This document shows, one piece after another, positions 1,057 through 22,187 of a DNA stretch of 25,112 bases. Positions within the stretch are counted from its first letter, which is position 1. Each line of letters begins with the position of its first letter. Origin of the DNA: a virus; the IMG/VR virus record IMGVR_UViG_3300032893_001950; one strand, 5' to 3'. The notes beneath the pieces were generated by a model that was not told where the DNA came from, ran no database searches, and saw only the letters and a list, made by a program, of their open reading frames with translations. Made by a program: the position numbers and the translations under genes.

Positions 1057-1342
1057 TGTCATACTCCTGTCGTATAATCCAATCCCACATCAATGGCATA
1101 TTTGTGACAATCCCTATTGTTACGGGTGTCAGTTCTGCGATGGTGGCTTGAGCGCTTGCATAGTATGTGGTGGATTGGAGGGCAGCCTACTATTGTTTTG
1201 TCCAGGGGTCAGGTTGGATCCAGATACTTTGGACGCAATTTATCAAGACCACATCGTGGATATTAACTACCACAGGATGCACAATGGAATCGATGGCCCA
1301 ACTCCACGTGCTGTAATTAATACCAAGTATTGGAGAAAGTGA
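1040..1342 (+). CDS. Cys-rich hypothetical protein (CDNPYCYGCQFCDGG...CIVCGG); start uncertain
   Basis: ORF in the 941..1342 frame; first ATG after the previous gene's end is at 1040. TGA overlaps the ligase ATG (tgATG). The AT-richer local composition makes the call weaker. Confidence 0.35.
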   Translation: MATGSDVILLSYNPIPHQWHICDNPYCYGCQFCDGGLSACIVCGGLEGSLLLFCPGVRLDPDTLDAIYQDHIVDINYHRMHNGIDGPTPRAVINTKYWRK

Positions 1343-2622
1343 TGCTAGACGTCTTCCAGAAGCTCTCCGACACGTCCTCCAAGACCGAGAAGGCCAAGAT
1401 TCTTTCTGGGCTCAACGAGACTCAGAAGAAGCTGTTTGTGGCGGCTCTCGATCCGATGCGCATCTACTTCTATCAGATGCCTTTGGACAACATCCCGCCA
1501 TCCACATCCAGCGACATGGCTGATGAGGCTGCCTCCAAGATGTTCTTGGATTTGCTGGACGCCCTCTCCGCACGGTTGGCCACCGGCACCTCTGCTCATG
1601 AGGTGGTTCGTACGACCTTCATGAAGTTCTCGAAGAACCAGCAACAGTGGTTCGCCCGGATCCTCAACAAGGACTTGAAGGTCGGGGTAGAGGTGAAGTC
1701 CTACCTGGCCGTCCACAAGGGAGCGTTCGAGGTTTTCGAGACCCAGCTCTGCGAGAAGTGGGAGCCGGGGCACGCCGACATTTCTGGATGGTACGCAGAG
1801 ATCAAGTACGACGGGCTGCGTGCCGTTGCTTGTGTCACCGCCACCGCCGTAGAGTTCTTCTCCCGCAACGGGAAGCCCATCTATGGCAACGAACATATGC
1901 ACGACACCCTGAAGGAGATGTATCACACCTTCAACCCGGGCCATATGGGAGCCATCTGGCTGGATGGAGAGCTTAAGGGCGGCGGCTTCAACGACTCCGT
2001 ATCCGTGATGCGGTCCAGCAAGAACAAGAAGGACTCGTCGGACGTCTGCTTCTACGTCTTCGATATCCTGGTGGGCGGCGCCTGGAAGAAGCGGGACACC
2101 CCGCCACTAGAGACGCGCCGGAAGCAGCTCCATCAGTTCTTCGGTGTGCCCAATCCCGACGACCTGCTGGGCCGGGCTTTCTCCTACAAGAAGACGAACA
2201 TCCTCGCCACCGGCCAGGTGAAGGTCAAGAATGATGCAGAGGTTCATCACTACTTCGGCAACGTCCTCCGGAACGGCCACGAGGGTCTTATCCTCAAGAA
2301 GCCTGGGTCCAAGTACGAGTGGAAACGGTCTAAGAACTGGCTGAAGGTGAAAGCGGAGGAGACCGAAGACCTGGAGGTCGTCGGTTACTACGAGGGCGAG
2401 GCCGGCTCCAAGCAACAAGGAATGCTTGGAGGCCTCATCTGCGACCGCAAGGGAATCCAGGTCCGAGTCGGTGGGGGTTTCTCCCAGGACCAAATCAAGC
2501 AGCTCTGGGACATAAAGGAGAAGCTCCTCGGCAAAGTCATCGAAGTGAAGTTCCATGAGGTGACGCCCGACGGCTCCCTCCGCCATCCCCGCTTCGTGCG
2601 GTTCCGCGAAGACAAGGAATAA
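1342..2622 (+). CDS. ATP-dependent DNA ligase
   Basis: Motif I EIKYDGLRA (KxDG adenylation lysine), motif III FYVFDIL, motif IV EGLILK, motif V NWLKVK. GGAGAAAG SD upstream of ATG 1342; the track's TTG at 1330 is less likely. Confidence 0.9.
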   Translation: MLDVFQKLSDTSSKTEKAKILSGLNETQKKLFVAALDPMRIYFYQMPLDNIPPSTSSDMADEAASKMFLDLLDALSARLATGTSAHEVVRTTFMKFSKNQQQWFARILNKDLKVGVEVKSYLAVHKGAFEVFETQLCEKWEPGHADISGWYAEIKYDGLRAVACVTATAVEFFSRNGKPIYGNEHMHDTLKEMYHTFNPGHMGAIWLDGELKGGGFNDSVSVMRSSKNKKDSSDVCFYVFDILVGGAWKKRDTPPLETRRKQLHQFFGVPNPDDLLGRAFSYKKTNILATGQVKVKNDAEVHHYFGNVLRNGHEGLILKKPGSKYEWKRSKNWLKVKAEETEDLEVVGYYEGEAGSKQQGMLGGLICDRKGIQVRVGGGFSQDQIKQLWDIKEKLLGKVIEVKFHEVTPDGSLRHPRFVRFREDKE

Positions 2623-6205: not shown

Positions 6206-6376
6206 ATGCACTGTGCCTGCCCTGGTTGTCGGTATGTACAATACATGAACAACAAGTGCGCACATCCCAAGACGTATGATCGCGACCTTACTTATCCTGA
6301 GAGACAAACCAGCCACTTTCCGGACAAGACACCAAAATGGTGTCCTATCAGCAAAAATAAATCTAACGGAGTGTAG
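6206..6376 (+). CDS. possible small Cys-rich protein (MHCACPGCRY...KCAH...WCPIS), 56 aa; its 3' end overlaps the tRNA-Pro gene
   Basis: ATG 6206 with AAGGTG 11 nt upstream; ORF ends TAG 6374-6376, 10 nt into the tRNA. Below the track's size cutoff, so weak. Confidence 0.25.
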   Translation: MHCACPGCRYVQYMNNKCAHPKTYDRDLTYPERQTSHFPDKTPKWCPISKNKSNGV

Positions 6377-6440
6377 CGCAGCCTGGTAGCGCACTTGCCT
6401 TGGGCGCAAGGGGCCGGAGGTTCGAATCCTCTCACTCCGA
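6367..6440 (+). tRNA. tRNA-Pro (anticodon UGG)
   Basis: Manual fold. Acceptor CGGAGTG/CACTCCG (7 bp, C1:G72, A73 discriminator as in bacterial tRNA-Pro). D-stem GCGC/GCGC. Anticodon stem CTTGC/GCAAG with loop CTTGGGC (anticodon TGG at 6401-6403, G37). T-arm GGAGG-TTCGAAT-CCTCT. CCA not encoded. Confidence 0.8.
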
Positions 6441-6485: not shown

Positions 6486-6770
6486 ATGAGCGGCAAGCCA
6501 TACCCAGAGGGTGTAGAGCGGGTGGCCGTGCTCCTACGCAAGGAGCACCAGCTCCGCGTCGAGCTGGGTGCCCTCAAGCCACATGTCGAGCGCTACCACA
6601 AAGCTCAGGAGGAGTACGGCAAGATTTCCACAGAGGTCGCCAAGCTCCTGGAGAGCATGGATCTGGAAGGACAGGGCAATTACGGGTTCGGTGGCCGGAT
6701 GGGGTGGTTTCTCCGCACCATGCGTGAGCTTATTCTAAAGGACCTGGCCAAGCCACAGGAGGGTCCATGA
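6486..6770 (+). CDS. hypothetical protein
   Basis: ATG with AGGGAG SD. 94-aa helical-looking ORF. Stop overlaps the next ATG (ATGA). Confidence 0.6.
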   Translation: MSGKPYPEGVERVAVLLRKEHQLRVELGALKPHVERYHKAQEEYGKISTEVAKLLESMDLEGQGNYGFGGRMGWFLRTMRELILKDLAKPQEGP

Positions 6771-7189
6771 AGCGCCTATTTGTTTTCACTGCTGTCCTCG
6801 GAATCGCTGCGGTTGGGGCCATCGCTTACGGAGAGCGGATCGCCTCGGTCGAGACCAAGGGCATCTTCGTAAAGGACAACATCTTCGTCGATGCCTTCGA
6901 CGACCCAGACCTCAAGGGTGTGGTCTGTTACATCACCTACTACAGCAAGGCGATGTCAATGGTGGACCCCAGCGACACGAGTATCGCCTGCGTGAAGACG
7001 GGTCCAGTTTCAGGAGAGCCGGGCAACAAGGCGGGCGTCTTTTCACAACAGAAGTCGCCCATCTTCAAGTCCACGGTTGTGGACCGGTTCTATGACGCCA
7101 ACCGCAAGGTAGTTCTCTACCTTGCATATACGACAGACACGGGCGGGAAGAACGCTGCCCACGCCATGTCGGCGGTTCCACTGCAGTAA
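6767..7189 (+). CDS. secreted/periplasmic protein, CreA-family-like (tentative)
   Basis: Signal peptide MKRLFVFTAVLGIAAVGAIAYG. The segment FVDAFDDPDLKGVVCYITYY...DPSDTSIACVKTGPV resembles the CreA/DUF family as recalled from memory. Confidence 0.6.
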   Translation: MKRLFVFTAVLGIAAVGAIAYGERIASVETKGIFVKDNIFVDAFDDPDLKGVVCYITYYSKAMSMVDPSDTSIACVKTGPVSGEPGNKAGVFSQQKSPIFKSTVVDRFYDANRKVVLYLAYTTDTGGKNAAHAMSAVPLQ

Positions 7190-7927: not shown

Positions 7928-8297
7928 GGGCCCGAAAAGGTTTCGACGTGGGACCTGAACGTAGTAGTGCGAGCCTAGGCGGTTACGGGCCTAGTCAAAT
8001 CCGTGGCAAACCAACAAACGCCAACGACAACGTTGACGTCGGCTTCCCCGCGCTCCGCGCGGCCTAAGCCACTCCAGGGTGAGACCGCCTCAATACACCC
8101 TGGGGCCAATAAAGAGGCTGTAACGCGGTGATGTTGTCCTGCTGCGCCGCGCCAAAGTAGTTGTAGGAAGACACGGGCTAGGTACCGAGCGGAGAGTTCC
8201 AACTCCAAACCGGTGCCGAAGAAAGAAATTGGAACTACGCTCGTAGTGCTGCTACCGGATGGACTTACGGACCCCGGTTCGATTCCGGGCGGGTCCA
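7928..8297 (+). ncRNA. ssrA: tmRNA (ssrA), one-piece; tag reading frame 8020..8067 encodes (A)NDNVDVGFPALRAA, stop TAA
   Basis: 5' end GGGCCCG-AAAA-GGTTTCGACGTGGG matches the tmRNA 5' consensus (GGGGCUG...GGAUUCGACGGG). 3' end GGAC-CCCGG-TTCGATT-CCGGG-CGGGTCC-A matches the T-arm plus acceptor. The acceptor pairs 7928-7934 with 8290-8296 and includes a G3:U70 wobble (Ala identity element). Resume codon GCC. The tag begins ANDN and ends AA, like proteobacterial tags. A hairpin CCAGGGTG...CACCCTGG follows the stop. Confidence 0.8.
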
Positions 8298-8314
8298 TTA
8301 TTTTGGAGTAAAAT

Positions 8315-17500: not shown

Positions 17501-17794
17501 AAGACCAACGGTGTGAATGGGCACAAGAACGGCCACTCCGAGCAGCTTCAGCTGCCCATCGAGATGCCGCACCCTGCGGTAATCGAGTCAGTGATGACAA
17601 AGGCCCCGGAAGTGGTGTCCTTCTCGTCCACCGCGCACTTCCAGGCGTTCTCTACGGATCTGCTGGCGAAAGCGGCCTCGCCTTGGGCCAGTAGCAAGAA
17701 GAAGCTGGAGCAGTGCCCGAATTGTTCCAGCAAGAACATTGATCATGGGGCTGGCTGCGCCACCTGTGCAGATTGTGGTGGTAGTTTCTGCTGA
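14510..17794 (+). CDS. nrdJ: class II (adenosylcobalamin-dependent) ribonucleoside-triphosphate/diphosphate reductase NrdJ, interrupted by an intein
   Basis: SNGEPGLLF motif and the active-site NPC|GE motif split by the intein (ATNP-C...N-CGEQ). C-terminal Zn ribbon CPNCSS...CATCADCGG typical of monomeric class II RNR. Mature length about 729 aa after excision. Confidence 0.9.
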   Translation: MAEMQLTPNAMNVLKKQKYLHPKDDGGTESVQEMWSRVSVAVGAAEDIFVGESNSANRYTFEKEAYYYQSEGLFVANSPTMVNAGKKRGQLAACFVLPIEDDTHSIMQASHNQVMVQTSGGGTGFSGARLRCRNSLVGTTGKVSGGAMSVLRMLNANSQYFITQGAARNGANMWVQPCWHFDVLEFIDIKRYELRNLHHKLEAGIHLTDDERKFLEGGTDIKEFNISVAATDEFMELATNGDYTTENWPLKDPKDGRVVEWTNAASMLDRIIFRAWSNGEPGLLFIDAANRQNPTPQIGTLEATNPCLTGDTFIATDKGLLQLHDIVEHKLKVKVYGSDGQLQDIAKYVDSGVQKIFQIKTRSGAELYATSYHRWPTKDGEKQTHELQVGDKLSVFVNAKLEQNLNTEEYDAGLLLGWLIGDGYLSHMESKSRSAGIIVGKDDFDYIPLIQNLIEKATGQKASEHKRDEFSTVQLLSQRIWKWAVNDMGVIPHKAGDKEVPQCVMEGSQSMQRGFLKGLFSADGHVVHGNDSRVQVRLTSKSKALMDGVRILLTQVGVVSKVMDRSRPPREDLFKHVNKDGDTVWYGSDGVAYEVHVSGRSYLEQFARAVGFTQQTKTIKLTAAIESLTGRQMVDDSDPIISIEPAGVEHTYCLNVTPTHSMVANGINTLNCGEQWLLGDESCTLGHAVLSRFCREFLSDKKMPTTLAEVLPFIDLDKLRDCFKFITRFLDNVVQVNYYPVESIAKMHRDGNRKIGVGVLGWGDMLAKLHIRYGSELSLILAAHIGKLWQEATDEASIGLAKERGSFGNYKGSAVELQFPEGMRNACRRTVAPTGSTGIIVNASTGIEPIFGLVLTRNQAGSIMHEVHSFFQEVLDREVSKSYHEQIFNYFSVMKTLAGISKDKTFAGIVPEWIEQVFVQASDVSPTEHVAMQAAWQQHTDNSISKTINMPSSASENDVRTAYVQAWKSGCKGITVYRDGSRNNQVLTVGDKTNGVKKTNGVNGHKNGHSEQLQLPIEMPHPAVIESVMTKAPEVVSFSSTAHFQAFSTDLLAKAASPWASSKKKLEQCPNCSSKNIDHGAGCATCADCGGSFC
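15428..16522 (+). mobile_element. intein (365 aa) with LAGLIDADG homing-endonuclease domain inside nrdJ
   Basis: Starts CLTGDTFIA (block A) directly after ATNP. LAGLIDADG motifs LLGWLIGDGYL and KGLFSADGHV. Ends HSMVANGINTLN followed by the C-extein Cys of CGEQ. In frame; the insertion is 1095 nt. Confidence 0.8.
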
Positions 17795-18139: not shown

Positions 18140-19546
18140 ATGGCCAAGGGCAAGAGCGTCACGGTAGTGGTGGGGATGCAGTATGGATCAGAGGCCAAGG
18201 GCAAACTGATCTCAGTGATCGCTCACGAGTACCAGATGCTCGTCCGCACGGGCTCAGTAAACGCGGCCCACACGGTCTACTTCGAAGGGAAGGCCTACCC
18301 CTGGCACCAGCTCCCGGCCGGCACCCTTCACATGATGAAGCGGAACCCGGAGTCCATCATCGTCCTGGGTGCTGGGTCACAGCTTGACCTGCACTACCTG
18401 GAGCGGGAGGTCAAGTGGCTCCAGGAGCATGGAGTCCTCTTCTTTGAGGGAACGAAGGTTCCCCGCCTGCTCATCGACAACATGGCCACGGTGATCGACG
18501 AGTTCGACACCTTCGCAGAGAACGGCTACGCCAATGTCTGCGGGCCGCAGTGGTACAAGCCCACTACCTGCCAGTACCACAACGGCGACAAGGGACCGGA
18601 CGGGGCGACCAAGGCGAAGGGCGGCTGTACCGGGTGCTCGCTCTACCCCGCCGACTCCATGCACCGGACCCTGGGTTCCACCACCCACGGGTCGGGCATG
18701 AACATGATCCGCAAGCTGGCTCGTCGCGGTAACATCGTGATGGGCCGCGAGAACCTGACCTTCGAGCAGTTCGTGGAGGGCATGGCCATCGACCAGATGT
18801 TGAAGGACGACATTGGGCCTGCCATCAAGGGAGTGATGGCCCAGGCCTACGAAATCTATGGCAAGCGTATCGCTCTCAAGGCGCCGCCGGTCAAGCTCGT
18901 GTCAGACATCAAGGACACGGAGATCGCGGGCGTGAAGCTCGGTGCCTTCCTGGCCGACACCGTGGACGCCATCAACACCTACATCGATGCCGGCAAGAAG
19001 GTAATGCTGGAGGGTACGCAGGGCGCGATGCTCTCTGTCCACCACGGCACCTGGCCCAAGACCACCAGCCGCGACACCAACGCCTCCAACTGGTGCATGG
19101 AGGCCGGCGTCGCCCCGACTGCTGTGGAGAAGGTCATCGGCGTGGCCCGTACCTTCCCGATCCGGGTGGCCGGCGATTCTGGGCCCACCAGCGGGAAGGA
19201 AATCACCTGGAAGGACGTCTCCGAGTTCGCGGGCGTGCCCTACACCCACAACGATGATCCCACCCAGATCAAGGGCCTCATCGAGATCACCACCGCCACC
19301 AAGCGGGTGCGCCGGGTCTTCGAGTTCGGGGACGAGGACTTCCTCAAGGCGATGCAACTGAATCGCCCCGACGAGCTGATGCTCACCTTCGTGGACTACC
19401 TGGGCATCGAGAATGCTGGCAAGCGTGACTGGAACGAACTCACGCCCAAGGCCCGTGAGTGGGTCATCAAGAAGGAAGCCTCCCTTGGTGTCCACTTCAG
19501 GTACCTGTCCACCGGTCCTGGCGACCAAGAACTCATCGTCCGCTAA
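18140..19546 (+). CDS. adenylosuccinate synthetase family enzyme (PurA/PurZ-like), divergent
   Basis: Alignable end to end with PurA. P-loop [14 protein letters not shown] matches VVVLGTQWGDEGKGK. Also NAAH (His41 region), GSTTHGSG (GTTGRGIGP), [19 protein letters not shown] ([20 protein letters not shown]), [14 protein letters not shown] (TTGRRRRTGWLD) and LSTGPGDQE (ISTGPDRTE). Deviations: Asp13 replaced by Ser, TKLD replaced by TFVD, and a Cys4 insertion (C-x9-C-x17-C-x2-C). Confidence 0.85.
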
Positions 19547-19806
19547 TGGGAATCGAAATCATGAACAACTTCGGCTGGGCAGTCGAGCGACTCAAGGATG
19601 GGTGTGCCGTCGCCCGTAAGGGCTGGAACGGCAAGGGCATGTGGATCGCCCTACAGCGCCCAGATGCCAACTCCAAGATGACCCTGCCATATACCTACAT
19701 GAGCACCGTGACCGGAGACCTGGTCCCGTGGCTAGCCTCTCAGACCGACATCCTCGCTGAGGACTGGGAGCTGGTTAAGGGACCCACACCCTACTCAGGT
19801 AAGTAG
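19546..19806 (+). CDS. DUF2829-like small protein (possible Tad2-like nucleotide sponge); alternative start ATG 19561
   Basis: TAATG overlap with the purA-like stop. [34 protein letters not shown]...[19 protein letters not shown] matches the recalled DUF2829 signature (GWNGKG, pW..sq.D.LA.DWE). Confidence 0.6.
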
Positions 19807-19974: not shown

Positions 19975-20901
19975 ATGGGATTCCTAAGCGAAACCGGCAA
20001 CTCCATCTACCTCGCACTGAAGGAAACGATCCAGACCGGGCGCCCGCTGGCGAAGAAGCCTCAGTCGGTCTGGACCCACCAGATCCCGGAAGTCTTCACC
20101 ATGGACGACCGTCTGCCCGGGACGAAGCTAATCCTTCGCCCCTACGGGACGGCGCCCTGCATCGCCACCGCTCGCAACAAGAGCGCTTGCTGGCACTGCA
20201 ACAACACCGACCCTCTATGGCACCAGCTCGCCCCCGATCAGCAGGTCGCCACGGGCGGCAAGTACAAGGGTCAGCGTGTGGACTTCAGCAAGAAGGTGGT
20301 CCACCTCCTGCCCATGTACAACCACACCGAGGGCAAGACCCAGATCCTGAAGAGCGGCAACCAGGTCTTCAAGGAGATGGAGAAGTGGGACGAGGCCGGG
20401 AACGACATCCGTGGCTGCGACTGGGACCTCTGGAAGAAGGGGACCTTCCGTAACACGGAGAACTTCTCGACCCGCAAGGACTCGACCCAGACCCTCCCCC
20501 TGGACCTCGCCGCCTACGAGGAAGAGGCCAAGGCCATCCTCCGGCAGGCCCTGGATGACCTCAAGCCGCTCAGCGCCGAAGAGTACGCCAAGCATGCTCA
20601 CGGCGTGAGCAAGGAAGAGGCCATCGAGGCGGCGAAGAAGAAGGCCGCTTCCGCGACGACCGCTGCTCCGGCGATGGGCCTCCCCGCCGCCCCGTCCTCG
20701 TCCGGTGCGCTCCCGCCCGCTCCTGCCATGGGCTCGATGCCGGCGCTCCCGCCTCCGCCGCCTCCCCCGGTGGCAGCTGTGGACAACCGGCTCATGCAGC
20801 CGCTGAAGTTCTCGGACGACAAGCACTACGTCCTGCTCGCCACCAACCAGTGGAAGCTGGTTGCGGAGGCGAAGCGCGAAGGGTACGTAGGCCTGCCGTA
20901 G
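19975..20901 (+). CDS. putative ssDNA-binding protein, T4 gp32-like (tentative), with C-terminal Ala/Pro-rich linker (PPPPPPP) and small C-terminal domain
   Basis: C-x9-C-x2-C (CIATARNKSACWHC) has the same spacing as the gp32 Zn site (C77-x9-C87-x2-C90). KLILRPYG resembles gp32 AVIRFLPS. EGKTQILKSGNQVFKEMEKW resembles gp32 EGKVFKYRFGKKIWDKI. CA-rich leader with AAGGA SD. Confidence 0.55.
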   Translation: MGFLSETGNSIYLALKETIQTGRPLAKKPQSVWTHQIPEVFTMDDRLPGTKLILRPYGTAPCIATARNKSACWHCNNTDPLWHQLAPDQQVATGGKYKGQRVDFSKKVVHLLPMYNHTEGKTQILKSGNQVFKEMEKWDEAGNDIRGCDWDLWKKGTFRNTENFSTRKDSTQTLPLDLAAYEEEAKAILRQALDDLKPLSAEEYAKHAHGVSKEEAIEAAKKKAASATTAAPAMGLPAAPSSSGALPPAPAMGSMPALPPPPPPPVAAVDNRLMQPLKFSDDKHYVLLATNQWKLVAEAKREGYVGLP

Positions 20902-20975: not shown

Positions 20976-22187
20976 ATGAAGACTTGGTCGATTGACATCA
21001 CCTTCAAGGGCACCGACGAGGCTGTCCATGATGCGGTGAAGAAGCTCGCCAACGAGTTCGCAACCAAGACCCTGTCCACCCACGTTCTCATCAGTGCCGG
21101 CGTCGGCAGCCAGCAGGAATGGGAAGGTAAGGTCCCGGCCCCAGGGCCGAAGGTCATACCTGAGCCGATCATCGAGAATGTGGACAACACGCCAGTGGTC
21201 GAGGCCGAGGTGGTTCCACCGAGCGAGGTGAAGAAGCTCAGCAGCTCCACCGCCCAGGCCCAATTCGAGGTGGTGGAGGTCAAGGCCGAGCCAGTCGCGC
21301 CACCGGTCCAGGCGGCACCGCCACCGCCGCCACCGCCGCCACCGCCCGTCCCGGCGTCTCCGCCGGTTCCGGACGCGCCCGCCGCTGCCGCCCCGCCACC
21401 GCCGCCACCCGCGCCCGTGCAGAACACGGCGCCGGCTCCTGTCGAAGTGTCGGCCACCCCGTCTGGTGGCATCGAGGCAGACAAGGCCATCGTGATGTCG
21501 GAAGGCAAGTACAAGGGCAAGACCCTCGGATGGGTCGCGGAGAATGACTCAAAGTACTTCACCTTCATGAAGTCCTACACCAAGGACGAGGCCATCAAGG
21601 CGGCCACCGATCGCATCAAGCTCGCCATGAAGGCTGGCGCCATCACCACTTCGGCCCCGACCGAGGCCCCGCCTCCGCCGCCTCCCCCAGTGGCTGGCGC
21701 GGCTGTGCCTCCACCCCCGCCCGCTCCCGTCACTCCTGAAGTGGCCGCACCCCCGCCTCCTCCACCCCCGCCTCCTGCCCCGGCGGCTGCAGCGGCTCCC
21801 CCTCCGCCGCCTCCTGCTCCTGCTGCGGTGGCCGCGCCTCCTCCCCCTCCGCCGCCCGCCCCAGCCCCTGCGGCCGAGCCCACCCCACCTGCCACGCCGG
21901 CTCCTGTCGCCGCTGCACCGGTCGATTCCAAGGCTCAAGTCGTCGCGGTTCAGGACCTGTCCAACTACATCAATTCGCAGCCCGAGTTCAAGGGTGCGAA
22001 CATGGTGAAGAACCTCATCCCGCTGCTTCGCGGTGTGATGAACGGGACCCTCGACTACACGGACAAGGACATCCCGACGCTTCAGAAGATTCGAGCGGTC
22101 GTGGACGCGTGGCTCACCACTGCCCGTAATAGGGCTCCGTCGGCCCCTCCGCCGCCCCCTCCGATGCCCACCGCGCCGACTGCCTAA
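20976..22187 (+). CDS. proline-rich multidomain protein with six polyproline (PPPPPPP-type) / Ala-Pro linker tracts
   Basis: ATG 20976 with GGGGAG SD; the track start 20934 lies inside the terminator hairpin. Three apparently folded segments separated by APPPPPPPPPPPVPASPPVP, APPPPPPAP, EAPPPPPPPVAGAAVPPPPPAP, AAPPPPPPPPPAPAAAAAPPPPPPAPAAVAAPPPPPPPAP and a C-terminal SAPPPPPPMP tract. Confidence 0.7.
   Translation: MKTWSIDITFKGTDEAVHDAVKKLANEFATKTLSTHVLISAGVGSQQEWEGKVPAPGPKVIPEPIIENVDNTPVVEAEVVPPSEVKKLSSSTAQAQFEVVEVKAEPVAPPVQAAPPPPPPPPPPVPASPPVPDAPAAAAPPPPPPAPVQNTAPAPVEVSATPSGGIEADKAIVMSEGKYKGKTLGWVAENDSKYFTFMKSYTKDEAIKAATDRIKLAMKAGAITTSAPTEAPPPPPPPVAGAAVPPPPPAPVTPEVAAPPPPPPPPPAPAAAAAPPPPPPAPAAVAAPPPPPPPAPAPAAEPTPPATPAPVAAAPVDSKAQVVAVQDLSNYINSQPEFKGANMVKNLIPLLRGVMNGTLDYTDKDIPTLQKIRAVVDAWLTTARNRAPSAPPPPPPMPTAPTA

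What the first reader, a model, noticed from the sequence alone, without database searches (positions are those of the whole stretch)
18140..19546. Divergent adenylosuccinate-synthetase homolog: P-loop Asp to Ser, altered (S/T)KLD, Cys4 insertion; PurZ-like candidate
The protein aligns with PurA along its whole length, but the catalytic P-loop GDEGKGK is GSEAKGK, the guanine-specificity box TKLD is TFVD, and a C-x9-C-x17-C-x2-C module is inserted before the IMP-loop (GSTTHGSG). Asp13 is the catalytic base in E. coli PurA. Phage PurA homologs include PurZ, which converts dGMP to dSMP for 2-aminoadenine (Z) genomes. A PurA with a rewired active site and nucleotide site in a phage replication module is a candidate for altered substrate or donor specificity, including but not limited to PurZ. 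No datZ (HD) or mazZ homolog is visible in this window.
Basis: partly seen in the sequence, partly recalled or inferred. Interest (0 to 1): 0.65.

Follow-up and report, generated by a model that had tools for sequence, protein, structure and literature searches.

The report
PurZ0-like Z-base enzyme, large phage
This gene most likely encodes a zinc-finger-bearing variant of the phage enzyme that starts synthesis of 2-aminoadenine (the "Z" base that replaces adenine in some phage DNA), and it suggests that a lineage of large uncultured phages of at least 100-185 kb may also use Z-DNA.

Summary
Window 18140-19546 (+) encodes a 468-aa adenylosuccinate-synthetase homolog with P-loop GSEAKGK (Ser17 in place of catalytic Asp13), TFVD in place of TKLD, and a Cys4 insertion. 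The spacing is C-x9-C-x18-C-x2-C, not x17.

The Asp-to-Ser change is the published hallmark of the PurZ/PurZ0 group. The query's GSEAKG P-loop is identical to the PurZ0 references. It has the PurZ state at all four ligand-contact positions that separate PurZ from PurA. It keeps the guanine-recognising Asp419 and STGP, as PurZ0 and PurA do, so GTP is the likely donor.

No datZ or mazZ is present. About 13 kb downstream on the same 103-kb contig, outside the window, lie an adenylate-kinase-like gene, a DmtZ-like gene with the catalytic Tyr/Asn/Glu conserved, and a DutZ-like dUTPase. That is the accessory set specific to PurZ0 phages. The module is syntenic in two jumbo relatives of 166 and 178 kb. 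The polymerase is DnaE-type, not PolA DpoZ.

The Cys4 module is invariant across a metagenome-only clade (bootstrap 100%) and absent from PurZ, PurZ0 and PurA.

Verdict: a new variant of a known kind. Activity and Z content are untested. Ser-type homologs without partners are also common in cellular genome assemblies.

The parts
18140..19546 (+). PurZ0-like N6-succino-2-amino-2'-deoxyadenylate synthase candidate (468 aa), Cys4-insertion subfamily
   Evidence: ORF; PF00709 1.2e-46; PHROG 1211 '2-aminooxy adenylosuccinate synthetase' 1.8e-60; AF2 model pLDDT 89, pTM 0.86, fold matches P. horikoshii PurA, phiVC8 PurZ and PurZ0 7VF6; member of a 62-sequence clade with bootstrap 1.0
18185..18205 (+). 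P-loop GSEAKGK; Ser17 replaces the PurA catalytic base Asp13
   Evidence: Alignment; GSEAKG is identical to Ghobes and Sergei PurZ0; PurZ has GSTGKG and PurA has GDEGKG; Ser is invariant in the family
18260..18274 (+). NAAHT: Asn41/Ala42 base pocket and catalytic His44; Ala43 is family-specific (Gly in PurA, PurZ and PurZ0)
   Evidence: 60 of 66 family members have Ala at this column
18539..18637 (+). Cys4 module C134-x9-C144-x2-H147 ... C163-x2-C166, a probable structural Zn site inserted just before the nucleotide 5'-phosphate loop
   Evidence: Cys134, 144, 163 and 166 are invariant in the 51-sequence alignment A1; 74 sequences carry the motif; the linker between the Cys pairs varies in length; absent from all PurA, PurZ and PurZ0 references; model pLDDT 72-90 over this region; no Pfam match for the insert alone
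18674..18697 (+). GSTTHGSG (d)NMP-binding loop; G-S-T as in PurZ/PurZ0 (PurA has G-T-T)
   Evidence: aligns to S-2L G130/S131/T132
19289..19315 (+). TTATKRVRR aspartate-binding loop; T384/T385/T387 in the PurZ state (PurA has G-A-T-T); Arg391 conserved
   Evidence: the S-2L T273-T276 loop contacts aspartate (PMC8342488)
19385..19396 (+). TFVD donor-base box; Asp419 = E. coli D333 (guanine N1/N2 recognition), retained
   Evidence: Asp in 66 of 66 family members; PurZ0 and PurA have Asp, PurZ has Asn or Gln
19508..19519 (+). STGP, second guanine-pocket element (E. coli S414-P417), PurA-like
   Evidence: PurZ has GFGP or GWGD at this position
14510..17794 (+). Class II-type ribonucleotide reductase with a LAGLIDADG intein; conserved upstream neighbour (deoxynucleotide supply, context only)
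   Evidence: Pfam annotation; the same RNR-then-PurZ-like order occurs in L009, L011, L173 and L174

Best explanation
The gene encodes a PurZ0-type enzyme. [quoted passage not shown] It acts with three phage genes about 13 kb downstream on the same contig. A DutZ-like dUTPase-family diphosphatase would convert dGTP to dGMP (feeding PurZ) and dATP to dAMP. A DmtZ-like NDT/DNPH1-family enzyme would destroy dAMP and/or transfer deoxyribose-5-phosphate to Z. An adenylate-kinase-like NMP kinase is a candidate dZMP kinase. Host PurB would convert dSMP to dZMP. A DnaE-type (family C) phage polymerase would then copy the genome with Z in place of some or all A. The family-specific Cys4 insertion is proposed to be a zinc-stabilised module in the loop that closes over the nucleotide 5'-phosphate. 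What is shown: homology, active-site residue states, conserved gene linkage and clade structure. What is inferred: substrates, donor, zinc binding, the kinase's role, and the presence of Z in the DNA.
For: (1) Ser17 sits at the Asp13 position. Asp is about 99% conserved in PurA, and Ser is found in 100% of 147 phage PurZ/PurZ0 sequences (PMC12884076). All 120 nearest homologs have Ser, and none of the 150 nearest representatives has Asp.
(2) Of 25 published S-2L PurZ ligand-contact positions, the query has the PurZ state at all four that differ between PurZ and PurA (S23, S131, T273, T274). It conserves N49, A50, H52, T132, R146, Q190, T205, R240, V241, T276 and R280 (PMC8342488).
(3) The GSEAKG P-loop, EGTQG and PIRVAGxSGP motifs match the PurZ0 references. 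Asp419 and STGP keep the guanine pocket.
(4) The same 103-kb contig carries an NDT-like gene and a dUTPase-like gene next to each other. The NDT-like protein keeps Ghobes DmtZ residues Y6, D12, P57, N77 and E103, and these are invariant across 9 DmtZ-like sequences. The profile hits DNPH1/Rcl at 8.6e-5. The dUTPase-like protein has all five motifs and is 39.5% identical to the Dut domain of the Sergei DmtZ-DutZ fusion. Every one of 98 PurZ0 genomes has dutZ and 85 have dmtZ.
(5) The order PurZ-like ... primase-helicase, AK-like, DmtZ-like, DutZ-like is conserved in two jumbo contigs whose PurZ-like proteins are only about 42% identical to the query.
(6) About 30 representative clusters are natural fusions of a P-loop nucleotide kinase with a PurZ0-signature enzyme. 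The AK-like profile hits adenylate kinases at 3.4e-5.
(7) The nearest annotated phage homologs are all PurZ/PurZ0 genes. The best named viral structural matches are PurZ entries.
Against: No biochemical or DNA-composition data exist, and the phage is uncultured.
The protein is below the curated cut-off of the NCBIfam PurZ model (155.6 vs 300 bits) and scores higher on the archaeal-type PurA model (190 vs 368).
In my distance tree the Cys4 clade does not group with the characterised PurZ0 references, and the deep branching is unresolved.
Ser-type homologs are common on Mb-scale bacterial and archaeal contigs, and 66 of 71 lack Z-pathway partners within 10 kb, so Ser alone does not prove PurZ function.
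The partner genes are 13 kb away rather than adjacent. dUTPases are common in phages, and the DutZ-like protein is no closer to DutZ than to canonical dUTPases by score (50 bits vs 43 bits).
No PolA-type DpoZ is seen.
Three family-specific changes at contact positions (Ala43, Lys307, Ala386), plus an insertion next to the nucleotide loop, leave room for a shifted specificity.
Confidence: 0.7

Rival explanations
1. A PurZ-family enzyme with shifted chemistry. The Cys4 insertion and the family-specific Ala43, Lys307 and Ala386 would change the nucleotide substrate or product (for example dIMP, GMP or another purine monophosphate). The phage would then make a different modified purine, or only remodel purine pools, rather than make dZ.
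For: Three contact positions differ from all characterised PurZ, PurZ0 and PurA enzymes. The insertion lies immediately before the nucleotide loop. The clade is separate from characterised PurZ and PurZ0. In the closest long-contig relative a Mom-domain protein follows the gene directly, hinting at further purine modification in the lineage. The protein is below all curated family cut-offs.
Against: All residues reported to shape the dGMP base pocket and the aspartate loop are in the PurZ state. The conserved partners are exactly the dATP/dGTP-processing set of PurZ0 phages.
Confidence: 0.15
2. A canonical adenylosuccinate synthetase acting as an auxiliary metabolic gene: IMP + Asp + GTP to adenylosuccinate, raising AMP/dATP supply for replication of a large genome next to the phage RNR.
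For: Whole-length PurA homology. The best NCBIfam and PDB sequence scores are to archaeal-type PurA. The GTP pocket is retained. The gene sits beside the RNR. Many Ser-type homologs in cellular genome assemblies have no Z partners and might be functional PurA-like enzymes.
Against: The catalytic base Asp13 is replaced by Ser, which is invariant in the family. Asp is about 99% conserved in PurA. The G-S-T and TT.T states are PurZ-like, not PurA-like. A linked dAMP-degrading DmtZ-like gene would work against making more adenine nucleotides.
Confidence: 0.06
3. The enzyme is PurZ0-like and active, but the genome is only partly Z-substituted or not substituted at all. The module would serve mainly to deplete or re-route host dGTP and dATP pools, for example for host shut-off or defence evasion.
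For: No Z-selective PolA DpoZ is present. The replicase is DnaE-type with unknown A/Z discrimination. No DatZ-type dATP triphosphohydrolase is seen in 43.7 kb.
Against: In characterised PurZ0 phages the DutZ plus DmtZ set suffices for adenine exclusion (PMC12884076). S-2L achieves full substitution with a non-selective PrimPol (PMC8342488).
Confidence: 0.1

Closest known systems
PurZ0 (Gordonia phage Archimedes, PDB 7VF6; Gordonia phage Ghobes; Arthrobacter phage Wayne/Sergei type)
   Same: Ser in place of Asp13 with an identical GSEAKG P-loop. EGTQG and PIRVAGxSGP motifs shared. Asp retained in the donor-base box. Genome also encodes DutZ-like and DmtZ-like proteins and lacks DatZ, MazZ and DUF550. 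Fold match to 7VF6 with TM 0.78 on the target.
   Different: Only about 32% identity. About 100 extra residues, including an invariant Cys4 module and a second insertion. Family-specific Ala43, Lys307 and Ala386. Forms its own clade. The partners lie 13 kb away, not adjacent. Host phages are at least 103-185 kb with a DnaE-type polymerase rather than ~40-45 kb with a PolA DpoZ-1. An AK-like kinase is part of the conserved module.
PurZ (Vibrio phage phiVC8, PDB 6FM1/6TNH; cyanophage S-2L, PDB 7ODX; Acinetobacter phage SH-Ab 15497 type)
   Same: Same fold (TM 0.75-0.85 on the target). Ser at the Asp13 position. G-S-T nucleotide loop and TT.T aspartate loop.
   Different: PurZ has GSTGKG and Asn or Gln at the donor box (ATP/dATP donor), and GFGP instead of STGP. 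Its genomes carry DatZ plus MazZ or DUF550, and PolA DpoZ-2 or PrimPol. None of these are found here.
Short archaeal-type adenylosuccinate synthetase (Pyrococcus horikoshii PurA, PDB 2D7U/5K7X; NCBIfam PRK04293)
   Same: Best sequence and structure match in the PDB (6e-31; TM 0.90-0.92 on the target). Same T-x-x-D and TGP guanine pocket.
   Different: The archaeal enzyme has the catalytic Asp (GDEGKG), no Cys4 insertion, and uses IMP. The query scores 190 bits against a family cut-off of 368.

Membership tests
PurZ/PurZ0 group (succino-amino-deoxyadenylate synthases) | Ser replaces the PurA catalytic Asp13 (100% of 147 phage members; PMC12884076) | tested here: met
   Ser17 aligns with Asp13 and is invariant in the family
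PurZ/PurZ0 group (succino-amino-deoxyadenylate synthases) | PurZ state at the other ligand-contact positions that differ from PurA (S-2L S131, T273, T274) | tested here: met
   Ser180, Thr384 and Thr385
PurZ/PurZ0 group (succino-amino-deoxyadenylate synthases) | Branches with Ser-type sequences, apart from Asp-type PurA | tested here: met
   The split of 119 Ser-type sequences from E. coli plus P. horikoshii PurA has bootstrap 1.0, but only two outgroup sequences and a distance method were used. No Asp-type protein occurs among the best 150 representatives.
PurZ/PurZ0 group (succino-amino-deoxyadenylate synthases) | Scores above the curated cut-off of NCBIfam NF038379 (amino_Aden_PurZ) | tested here: not met
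   155.6 bits vs a cut-off of 300. That model is an 'exception'-type model only 293 positions long; the query also fails every PurA model.
PurZ/PurZ0 group (succino-amino-deoxyadenylate synthases) | Catalyses dGMP + Asp + NTP to dSMP, and the genome contains dZ | not testable with these tools
   Needs an enzyme assay and nucleoside analysis
PurZ0 subgroup | Guanine-type donor pocket like archaeal PurA (Asp at the E. coli D333 position) | tested here: met
   Asp419 in 66 of 66 family members, plus STGP. The GTP preference of PurZ0 itself comes from Tong et al. 2023 (own knowledge; paper not held) and the introduction of bioRxiv 10.1101/2025.10.22.683976.
PurZ0 subgroup | Genome encodes dutZ (98 of 98 PurZ0 genomes) | tested here: met
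   A dUTPase-family gene lies on the same contig (PF00692 5.8e-11, five motifs, 39.5% identity to the Sergei Dut domain) and is conserved in L171 and L172. Whether it has DutZ specificity for dATP and dGTP is untested.
PurZ0 subgroup | Genome encodes dmtZ (85 of 98), with catalytic Tyr6, Asn77 and Glu103 | tested here: met
   An NDT-like gene adjacent to the dUTPase-like gene has Tyr, Asp, Pro, Asn and Glu aligned and invariant. Trp124 does not align.
PurZ0 subgroup | Monophyletic with characterised PurZ0 enzymes | tested here: inconclusive
   In the NJ tree the Ghobes and Sergei PurZ0 references group with the PurZ references (bootstrap 0.655) outside the Cys4 clade. Deep nodes are below 0.6.
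PurZ0 subgroup | PolA-type DpoZ-1 polymerase in the genome | tested here: not met
   No PolA in the 43.7 kb seen; a DnaE-type Pol III alpha is present instead. About 60 kb of the contig was not examined.
ATP-dependent PurZ subgroup | Asn or Gln at the donor-base position, GSTGKG P-loop, DatZ plus MazZ or DUF550 partners | tested here: not met
   The query has Asp419 and GSEAKG, and no DatZ, MazZ or DUF550
Canonical adenylosuccinate synthetase (PurA) | Catalytic Asp13, and a score above the TIGR00184, PRK01117 or PRK04293 cut-offs | tested here: not met
   Ser17. Scores of 157 vs 396, 138 vs 402 and 190 vs 368 bits.

The most novel reading that the evidence does not exclude
A widespread, uncultured lineage of large phages (103 to about 185 kb) has a T4-like recombination and replication module with a gp32-like SSB, RecA/UvsX and a primase-helicase. 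It makes 2-aminoadenine DNA with a zinc-module PurZ0 variant, its own NMP kinase and a DmtZ/DutZ pair, and it replicates that DNA with a family-C (DnaE-type) polymerase. This would be the first Z-genome system outside small siphoviruses and podoviruses, and the first to use a Pol III-type replicase.
Probability: 0.5. Interest if true: 0.7.

Novelty: new variant of a known kind. Interest (0 to 1): 0.55.

Why it matters
Characterised Z-genome phages are small, about 40-45 kb for the references examined here, and use PolA-type DpoZ or a PrimPol. If this clade is active, Z-DNA biosynthesis extends to phages of at least 100-185 kb that replicate with a DnaE-type polymerase. That raises a directly testable question: how does a family-C replicase handle, or select, dZTP? 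It also adds two candidate pathway components not described in the papers I could read: a phage-encoded adenylate-kinase-like NMP kinase, supported independently by natural kinase-PurZ0 fusions, and a conserved Cys4 module in the synthetase. For annotation, no curated model captures this clade. It is labelled 'adenylosuccinate synthase' by the sources that name it at all, so these predicted Z-phages would be missed or mis-called. The finding remains a sequence-based prediction.

Tried and rejected
1. DNA-level search of 8 kb around the gene against 50,697 phage records: no match, so no cultured relative.
2. Single-sequence scans of IMG/VR with the source DutZ-like and DmtZ-like proteins: nothing found, because that method reaches close relatives only.
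This was inconclusive. Re-centring on a shared 133-aa protein solved it.
4. The search for homologous proteins with the DutZ-like protein: only 5 hits. It was useful only for obtaining an id to extend the contig.
5. Pfam on the excised Cys4 insert and on the second insert: no family even at E=10.
6. AFDB Foldseek: library unavailable.
7. Tong et al. 2023 (the PurZ0 paper): not held, so the GTP preference of PurZ0 rests on my own knowledge plus the introduction of the metaGPA preprint. The sentence in PMC12884076 giving 'ATP and GTP, respectively' for PurZ0 and PurZ appears to be inverted relative to that paper's own introduction.
8. I considered that Ser17 might be an assembly error. Rejected: the protein is identical in two assemblies and Ser is invariant in all relatives.
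9. I considered the ATP-type PurZ with a DatZ/MazZ cluster. Rejected on residues and gene content.
10. I could not measure Cys-Cys distances because model coordinates are not exposed, so zinc binding stays an inference.
11. About 60 kb of the 103-kb contig could not be reached, so PurB, a second polymerase or DatZ elsewhere cannot be excluded.
Full report
**1. Observation**

Window 18140-19546 (+) is an ATG-initiated ORF of 468 aa. The identical protein is encoded on a 103,236-bp ENA metagenome contig and on an independent Logan contig, so the unusual residues are not assembly errors.

It is a full-length adenylosuccinate-synthetase homolog: Pfam PF00709 at E=1.2e-46, and PHROG 1211 '2-aminooxy adenylosuccinate synthetase' at 1.8e-60. 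The cysteines are at 134, 144, 163 and 166, so the spacing is C-x9-C-x18-C-x2-C rather than x17.

**2. What the P-loop change means**

PMC12884076 reports about 99% conservation of Asp13 in PurA. It reports replacement by Ser in 100% of 147 phage sequences of the PurZ group, which splits into PurZ0 and PurZ. The metaGPA preprint uses 'PurZ homolog with S14' as its definition of a dZ phage.

I took reference sequences from annotated records: phiVC8, S-2L and Acinetobacter-phage PurZ; Ghobes and Sergei PurZ0; and E. coli PurA. In the alignment, the query's GSEAKG is identical to both PurZ0 references. PurZ has GSTGKG and PurA has GDEGKG.

All 120 nearest homologs carry Ser. Among the 150 nearest 50%-identity representatives of 1.84 billion proteins, none has Asp.

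**3. Residue-by-residue comparison**

I mapped the 25 S-2L PurZ ligand-contact positions given in PMC8342488 onto the alignment.
- At the four positions that separate PurZ from PurA, the query has the PurZ state: Ser17, Ser180, Thr384 and Thr385.
- It conserves the base-pocket, phosphate and aspartate-loop residues: Asn41, Ala42, His44, Thr181, Arg195, Gln294, Thr309, Arg342, Val343, Thr387 and Arg391.
- At the donor-base position (S-2L Q308, phiVC8 N297, E. coli D333) the query has Asp419. Asp is found in 66 of 66 family members, in both PurZ0 references and in PurA.
- STGP is also retained.

TKLD to TFVD is therefore not a rewired donor site. P. horikoshii PurA, crystallised with GTP, has TMLD at the same place. 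The predicted donor is GTP, as reported for PurZ0. That report rests on my own knowledge of Tong et al. 2023, which is not held in the library, and it is consistent with the introduction of the preprint.

Three contact positions are family-specific: Ala43, Lys307 and Ala386.

**4. A distinct clade with a Cys4 module**

Database searches recover about 70 metagenome-only relatives at 38-51% identity and 400-530 aa, plus a second group of 390-413 aa. Every one carries the block AENG...C-x9/10-C-x2-H...(variable linker)...C-x2-C directly before the G-S-T nucleotide loop. PurA, PurZ and PurZ0 lack it. The four Cys are invariant in a 51-sequence alignment.

In a bootstrapped distance tree (121 sequences, 332 columns, 200 replicates):
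- The long Cys4 clade of 62 sequences has support 1.0.
- The Ser-type sequences separate from E. coli and P. horikoshii PurA with support 1.0.
- The PurZ references have support 1.0.
- The position of the Cys4 clade relative to PurZ0 and PurZ is unresolved.

No curated NCBIfam model claims the protein: PurZ 155.6 vs 300, archaeal-type PurA 190 vs 368, TIGR00184 157 vs 396.

An AlphaFold2 model built from the family alignment is confident (pLDDT 89, pTM 0.86; 72-90 over the Cys4 region). It superposes on P. horikoshii PurA (TM 0.90-0.92 on the target), phiVC8 PurZ (0.84) and PurZ0 7VF6 (0.78). TM on the query stays near 0.65 because no solved or BFVD structure covers the insertions.

From established PurA structural work, the corresponding loop (E. 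coli residues about 120-131) orders over IMP on binding. I therefore infer that the Cys4 block is a zinc-stabilised lid element. This is inference only.

**5. Genomic context**

The window holds a replication and nucleotide-metabolism module:
- an ATP-dependent DNA ligase
- a class II-type RNR with an intein
- the PurZ-like gene
- a Tad2-like gene
- a probable gp32-like SSB
- RecA
- a PD-(D/E)XK nuclease

Extending along the source contig shows, in order: DEAD helicase, primase-helicase, a 193-aa adenylate-kinase-like protein, an 89-aa ORF, a 220-aa NDT-like protein, a 220-aa dUTPase-family protein, a sigma-like protein, a 1212-aa DnaE-type Pol III alpha, and Mre11/SbcC-like genes.

Evidence on the three partner proteins:
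- NDT-like protein. It aligns with Ghobes DmtZ and with the N-terminal domain of the Sergei NDT-Dut fusion. It keeps Tyr6, Asp12, Pro57, Asn77 and Glu103 of Ghobes DmtZ, the residues mutagenised or modelled in PMC12884076. These are the invariant columns across nine DmtZ-like sequences. Its profile hits DNPH1/Rcl and the NDTs, as the paper reports for DmtZ.
- dUTPase-like protein. It has all five dUTPase motifs and is 37.6-39.5% identical to the Ghobes and Sergei DutZ proteins.
- Kinase. Its profile hits adenylate kinases at 3.4e-5.

DatZ, MazZ, DUF550, DUF5664 and PolA queries find nothing in 43.7 kb. According to PMC12884076, all 98 PurZ0 genomes have dutZ and 85 have dmtZ, while DatZ, MazZ and DUF550 belong to PurZ genomes. 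The accessory set therefore agrees with the active-site signature.

**6. Conservation of the linkage**

IMG/VR contigs of 166 kb and 178 kb carry PurZ-like proteins that are only about 42% identical to the query. They show the same order from RNR through PurZ-like, SSB-like, RecA, nuclease, helicase and primase-helicase to AK-like, DmtZ-like and DutZ-like. One of them continues into a DnaE-type gene. The RNR, PurZ-like, RecA, helicase and primase-helicase order also holds for the closest long-contig relative and for the short Cys4 subfamily.

Among about 40-kb IMG/VR phages with a Ser plus Asp enzyme lacking Cys4, DutZ usually follows the synthetase directly and a PolA is nearby.

**7. Caveats**

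- Nothing here measures activity or DNA composition.
- A scan of 185,579 species genomes shows many Ser-type short homologs on Mb-scale bacterial and archaeal contigs. Of 71 such loci, 66 have no Z-pathway partner within 10 kb. Ser alone is therefore not sufficient evidence of PurZ function, and the conserved partner set carries much of the argument.
- The DutZ-like protein is not clearly closer to DutZ than to ordinary dUTPases by score.
- About 60 kb of the contig was not seen.
- The only long Cys4 hit in genome assemblies is the 183.8-kb phage-like contig binned into a Paceibacterota MAG, so the host remains unknown.

**8. Literature and novelty**

PurZ homology has already been used to predict more than 2000 dZ viruses (PMC13128860), so another PurZ homolog is not surprising in itself. 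In the held library I found no paper linking PurZ with jumbo phages, a DnaE-type polymerase, a phage NMP kinase or a Cys/zinc module.

About 30 representative clusters are natural fusions of a P-loop nucleotide kinase with a PurZ0-signature enzyme. This independently ties a kinase to the pathway.

I class the finding as a new variant of a known kind: a PurZ0-like synthetase subfamily with a Cys4 insertion, in a lineage of large phages with a different replicase.

**9. Verdict**

Confidence in the mechanism is 0.7. Interest is 0.55.

Noticed in passing
window 7928-8300 (+) and 6367-6440 (+): The phage contig encodes a tmRNA (Rfam RF00023, 135.8 bits vs gathering score 47; ARAGORN tag peptide ANDNVDVGFPALRAA) and a tRNA-Pro(TGG).
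   Followed up: partly
window 9724-12285 (+): An 853-aa protein with major-vault-protein domains (MVP_shoulder 5.6e-25, Vault_3 1.2e-10, weak Vault repeat), which is unusual in a phage.
   Followed up: no
window 19561-19806 (+): A Tad2-like (Thoeris anti-defence 2) protein, PF11195 E=4.1e-26, lies immediately downstream of the PurZ-like gene.
   Followed up: no
window 19975-20901 (+) and 20976-22187 (+): The 308-aa protein has C-x9-C-x2-C (APCIATARNKSACWHC), like the T4 gp32 zinc site. It is conserved between the PurZ-like gene and RecA in all Cys4-clade loci, so it is probably the SSB. In L009 and L011 it is fused with a homolog of the following 403-aa protein, which has long poly-proline tracts. 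The gp32 resemblance is from memory and was not tested.
   Followed up: partly
window 14510-17794 (+); L173 14948-17398; L174 434-4963: Inteins are frequent in this lineage. There is a LAGLIDADG intein in the RNR here, one in RecA of L173, and two in the RNR of L174.
   Followed up: no
L177 12517-16155 (window-equivalent about 35538-39176, outside the window): The phage replicase is a 1212-aa DnaE-type Pol III alpha (PHP, DNA_pol3_alpha, finger, HHH_6). L171 has one at the same relative position. L010/L179 instead has a PolA-like fragment.
   Followed up: partly
L089 17448-18029 (window-equivalent 31521-32102); proteins P0131, P0133, P0150, P0217, P0248: An adenylate-kinase-like gene is conserved just upstream of the DmtZ/DutZ pair. 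Separately, about 30 representative clusters are N-terminal P-loop kinase (AAA_17/AAA_18/ADK) fusions to PurZ0-signature enzymes, and P0217 has two kinase domains.
   Followed up: partly
L173 11313-12701: In the closest long-contig relative (125.7 kb; PurZ-like protein 49% identical to the query), a 462-aa protein with a Mom domain (PF25680) directly follows the PurZ-like gene. This is a possible additional purine modification in that phage.
   Followed up: no
L180-L257 (genome-contig loci): Ser-type (GSEGKG) short PurA homologs occur on Mb-scale contigs of Acidobacteriota/Bryobacterales, Alphaproteobacteria, Chloroflexota, Halobacteria, a Promethearchaeota MAG and CPR/DPANN MAGs. Most have no DutZ, DatZ or MazZ within 10 kb, and their function is unknown.
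   Followed up: partly
window 1330-2622 (+) and 6767-7189 (+): An ATP-dependent DNA ligase (PHROG 114, 8e-100) and a CreA-family protein (PF05981, 2.4e-26) lie upstream.
   Followed up: no
PMC12884076, section 24: [quoted passage not shown] It is probably an inverted 'respectively'.
   Followed up: partly
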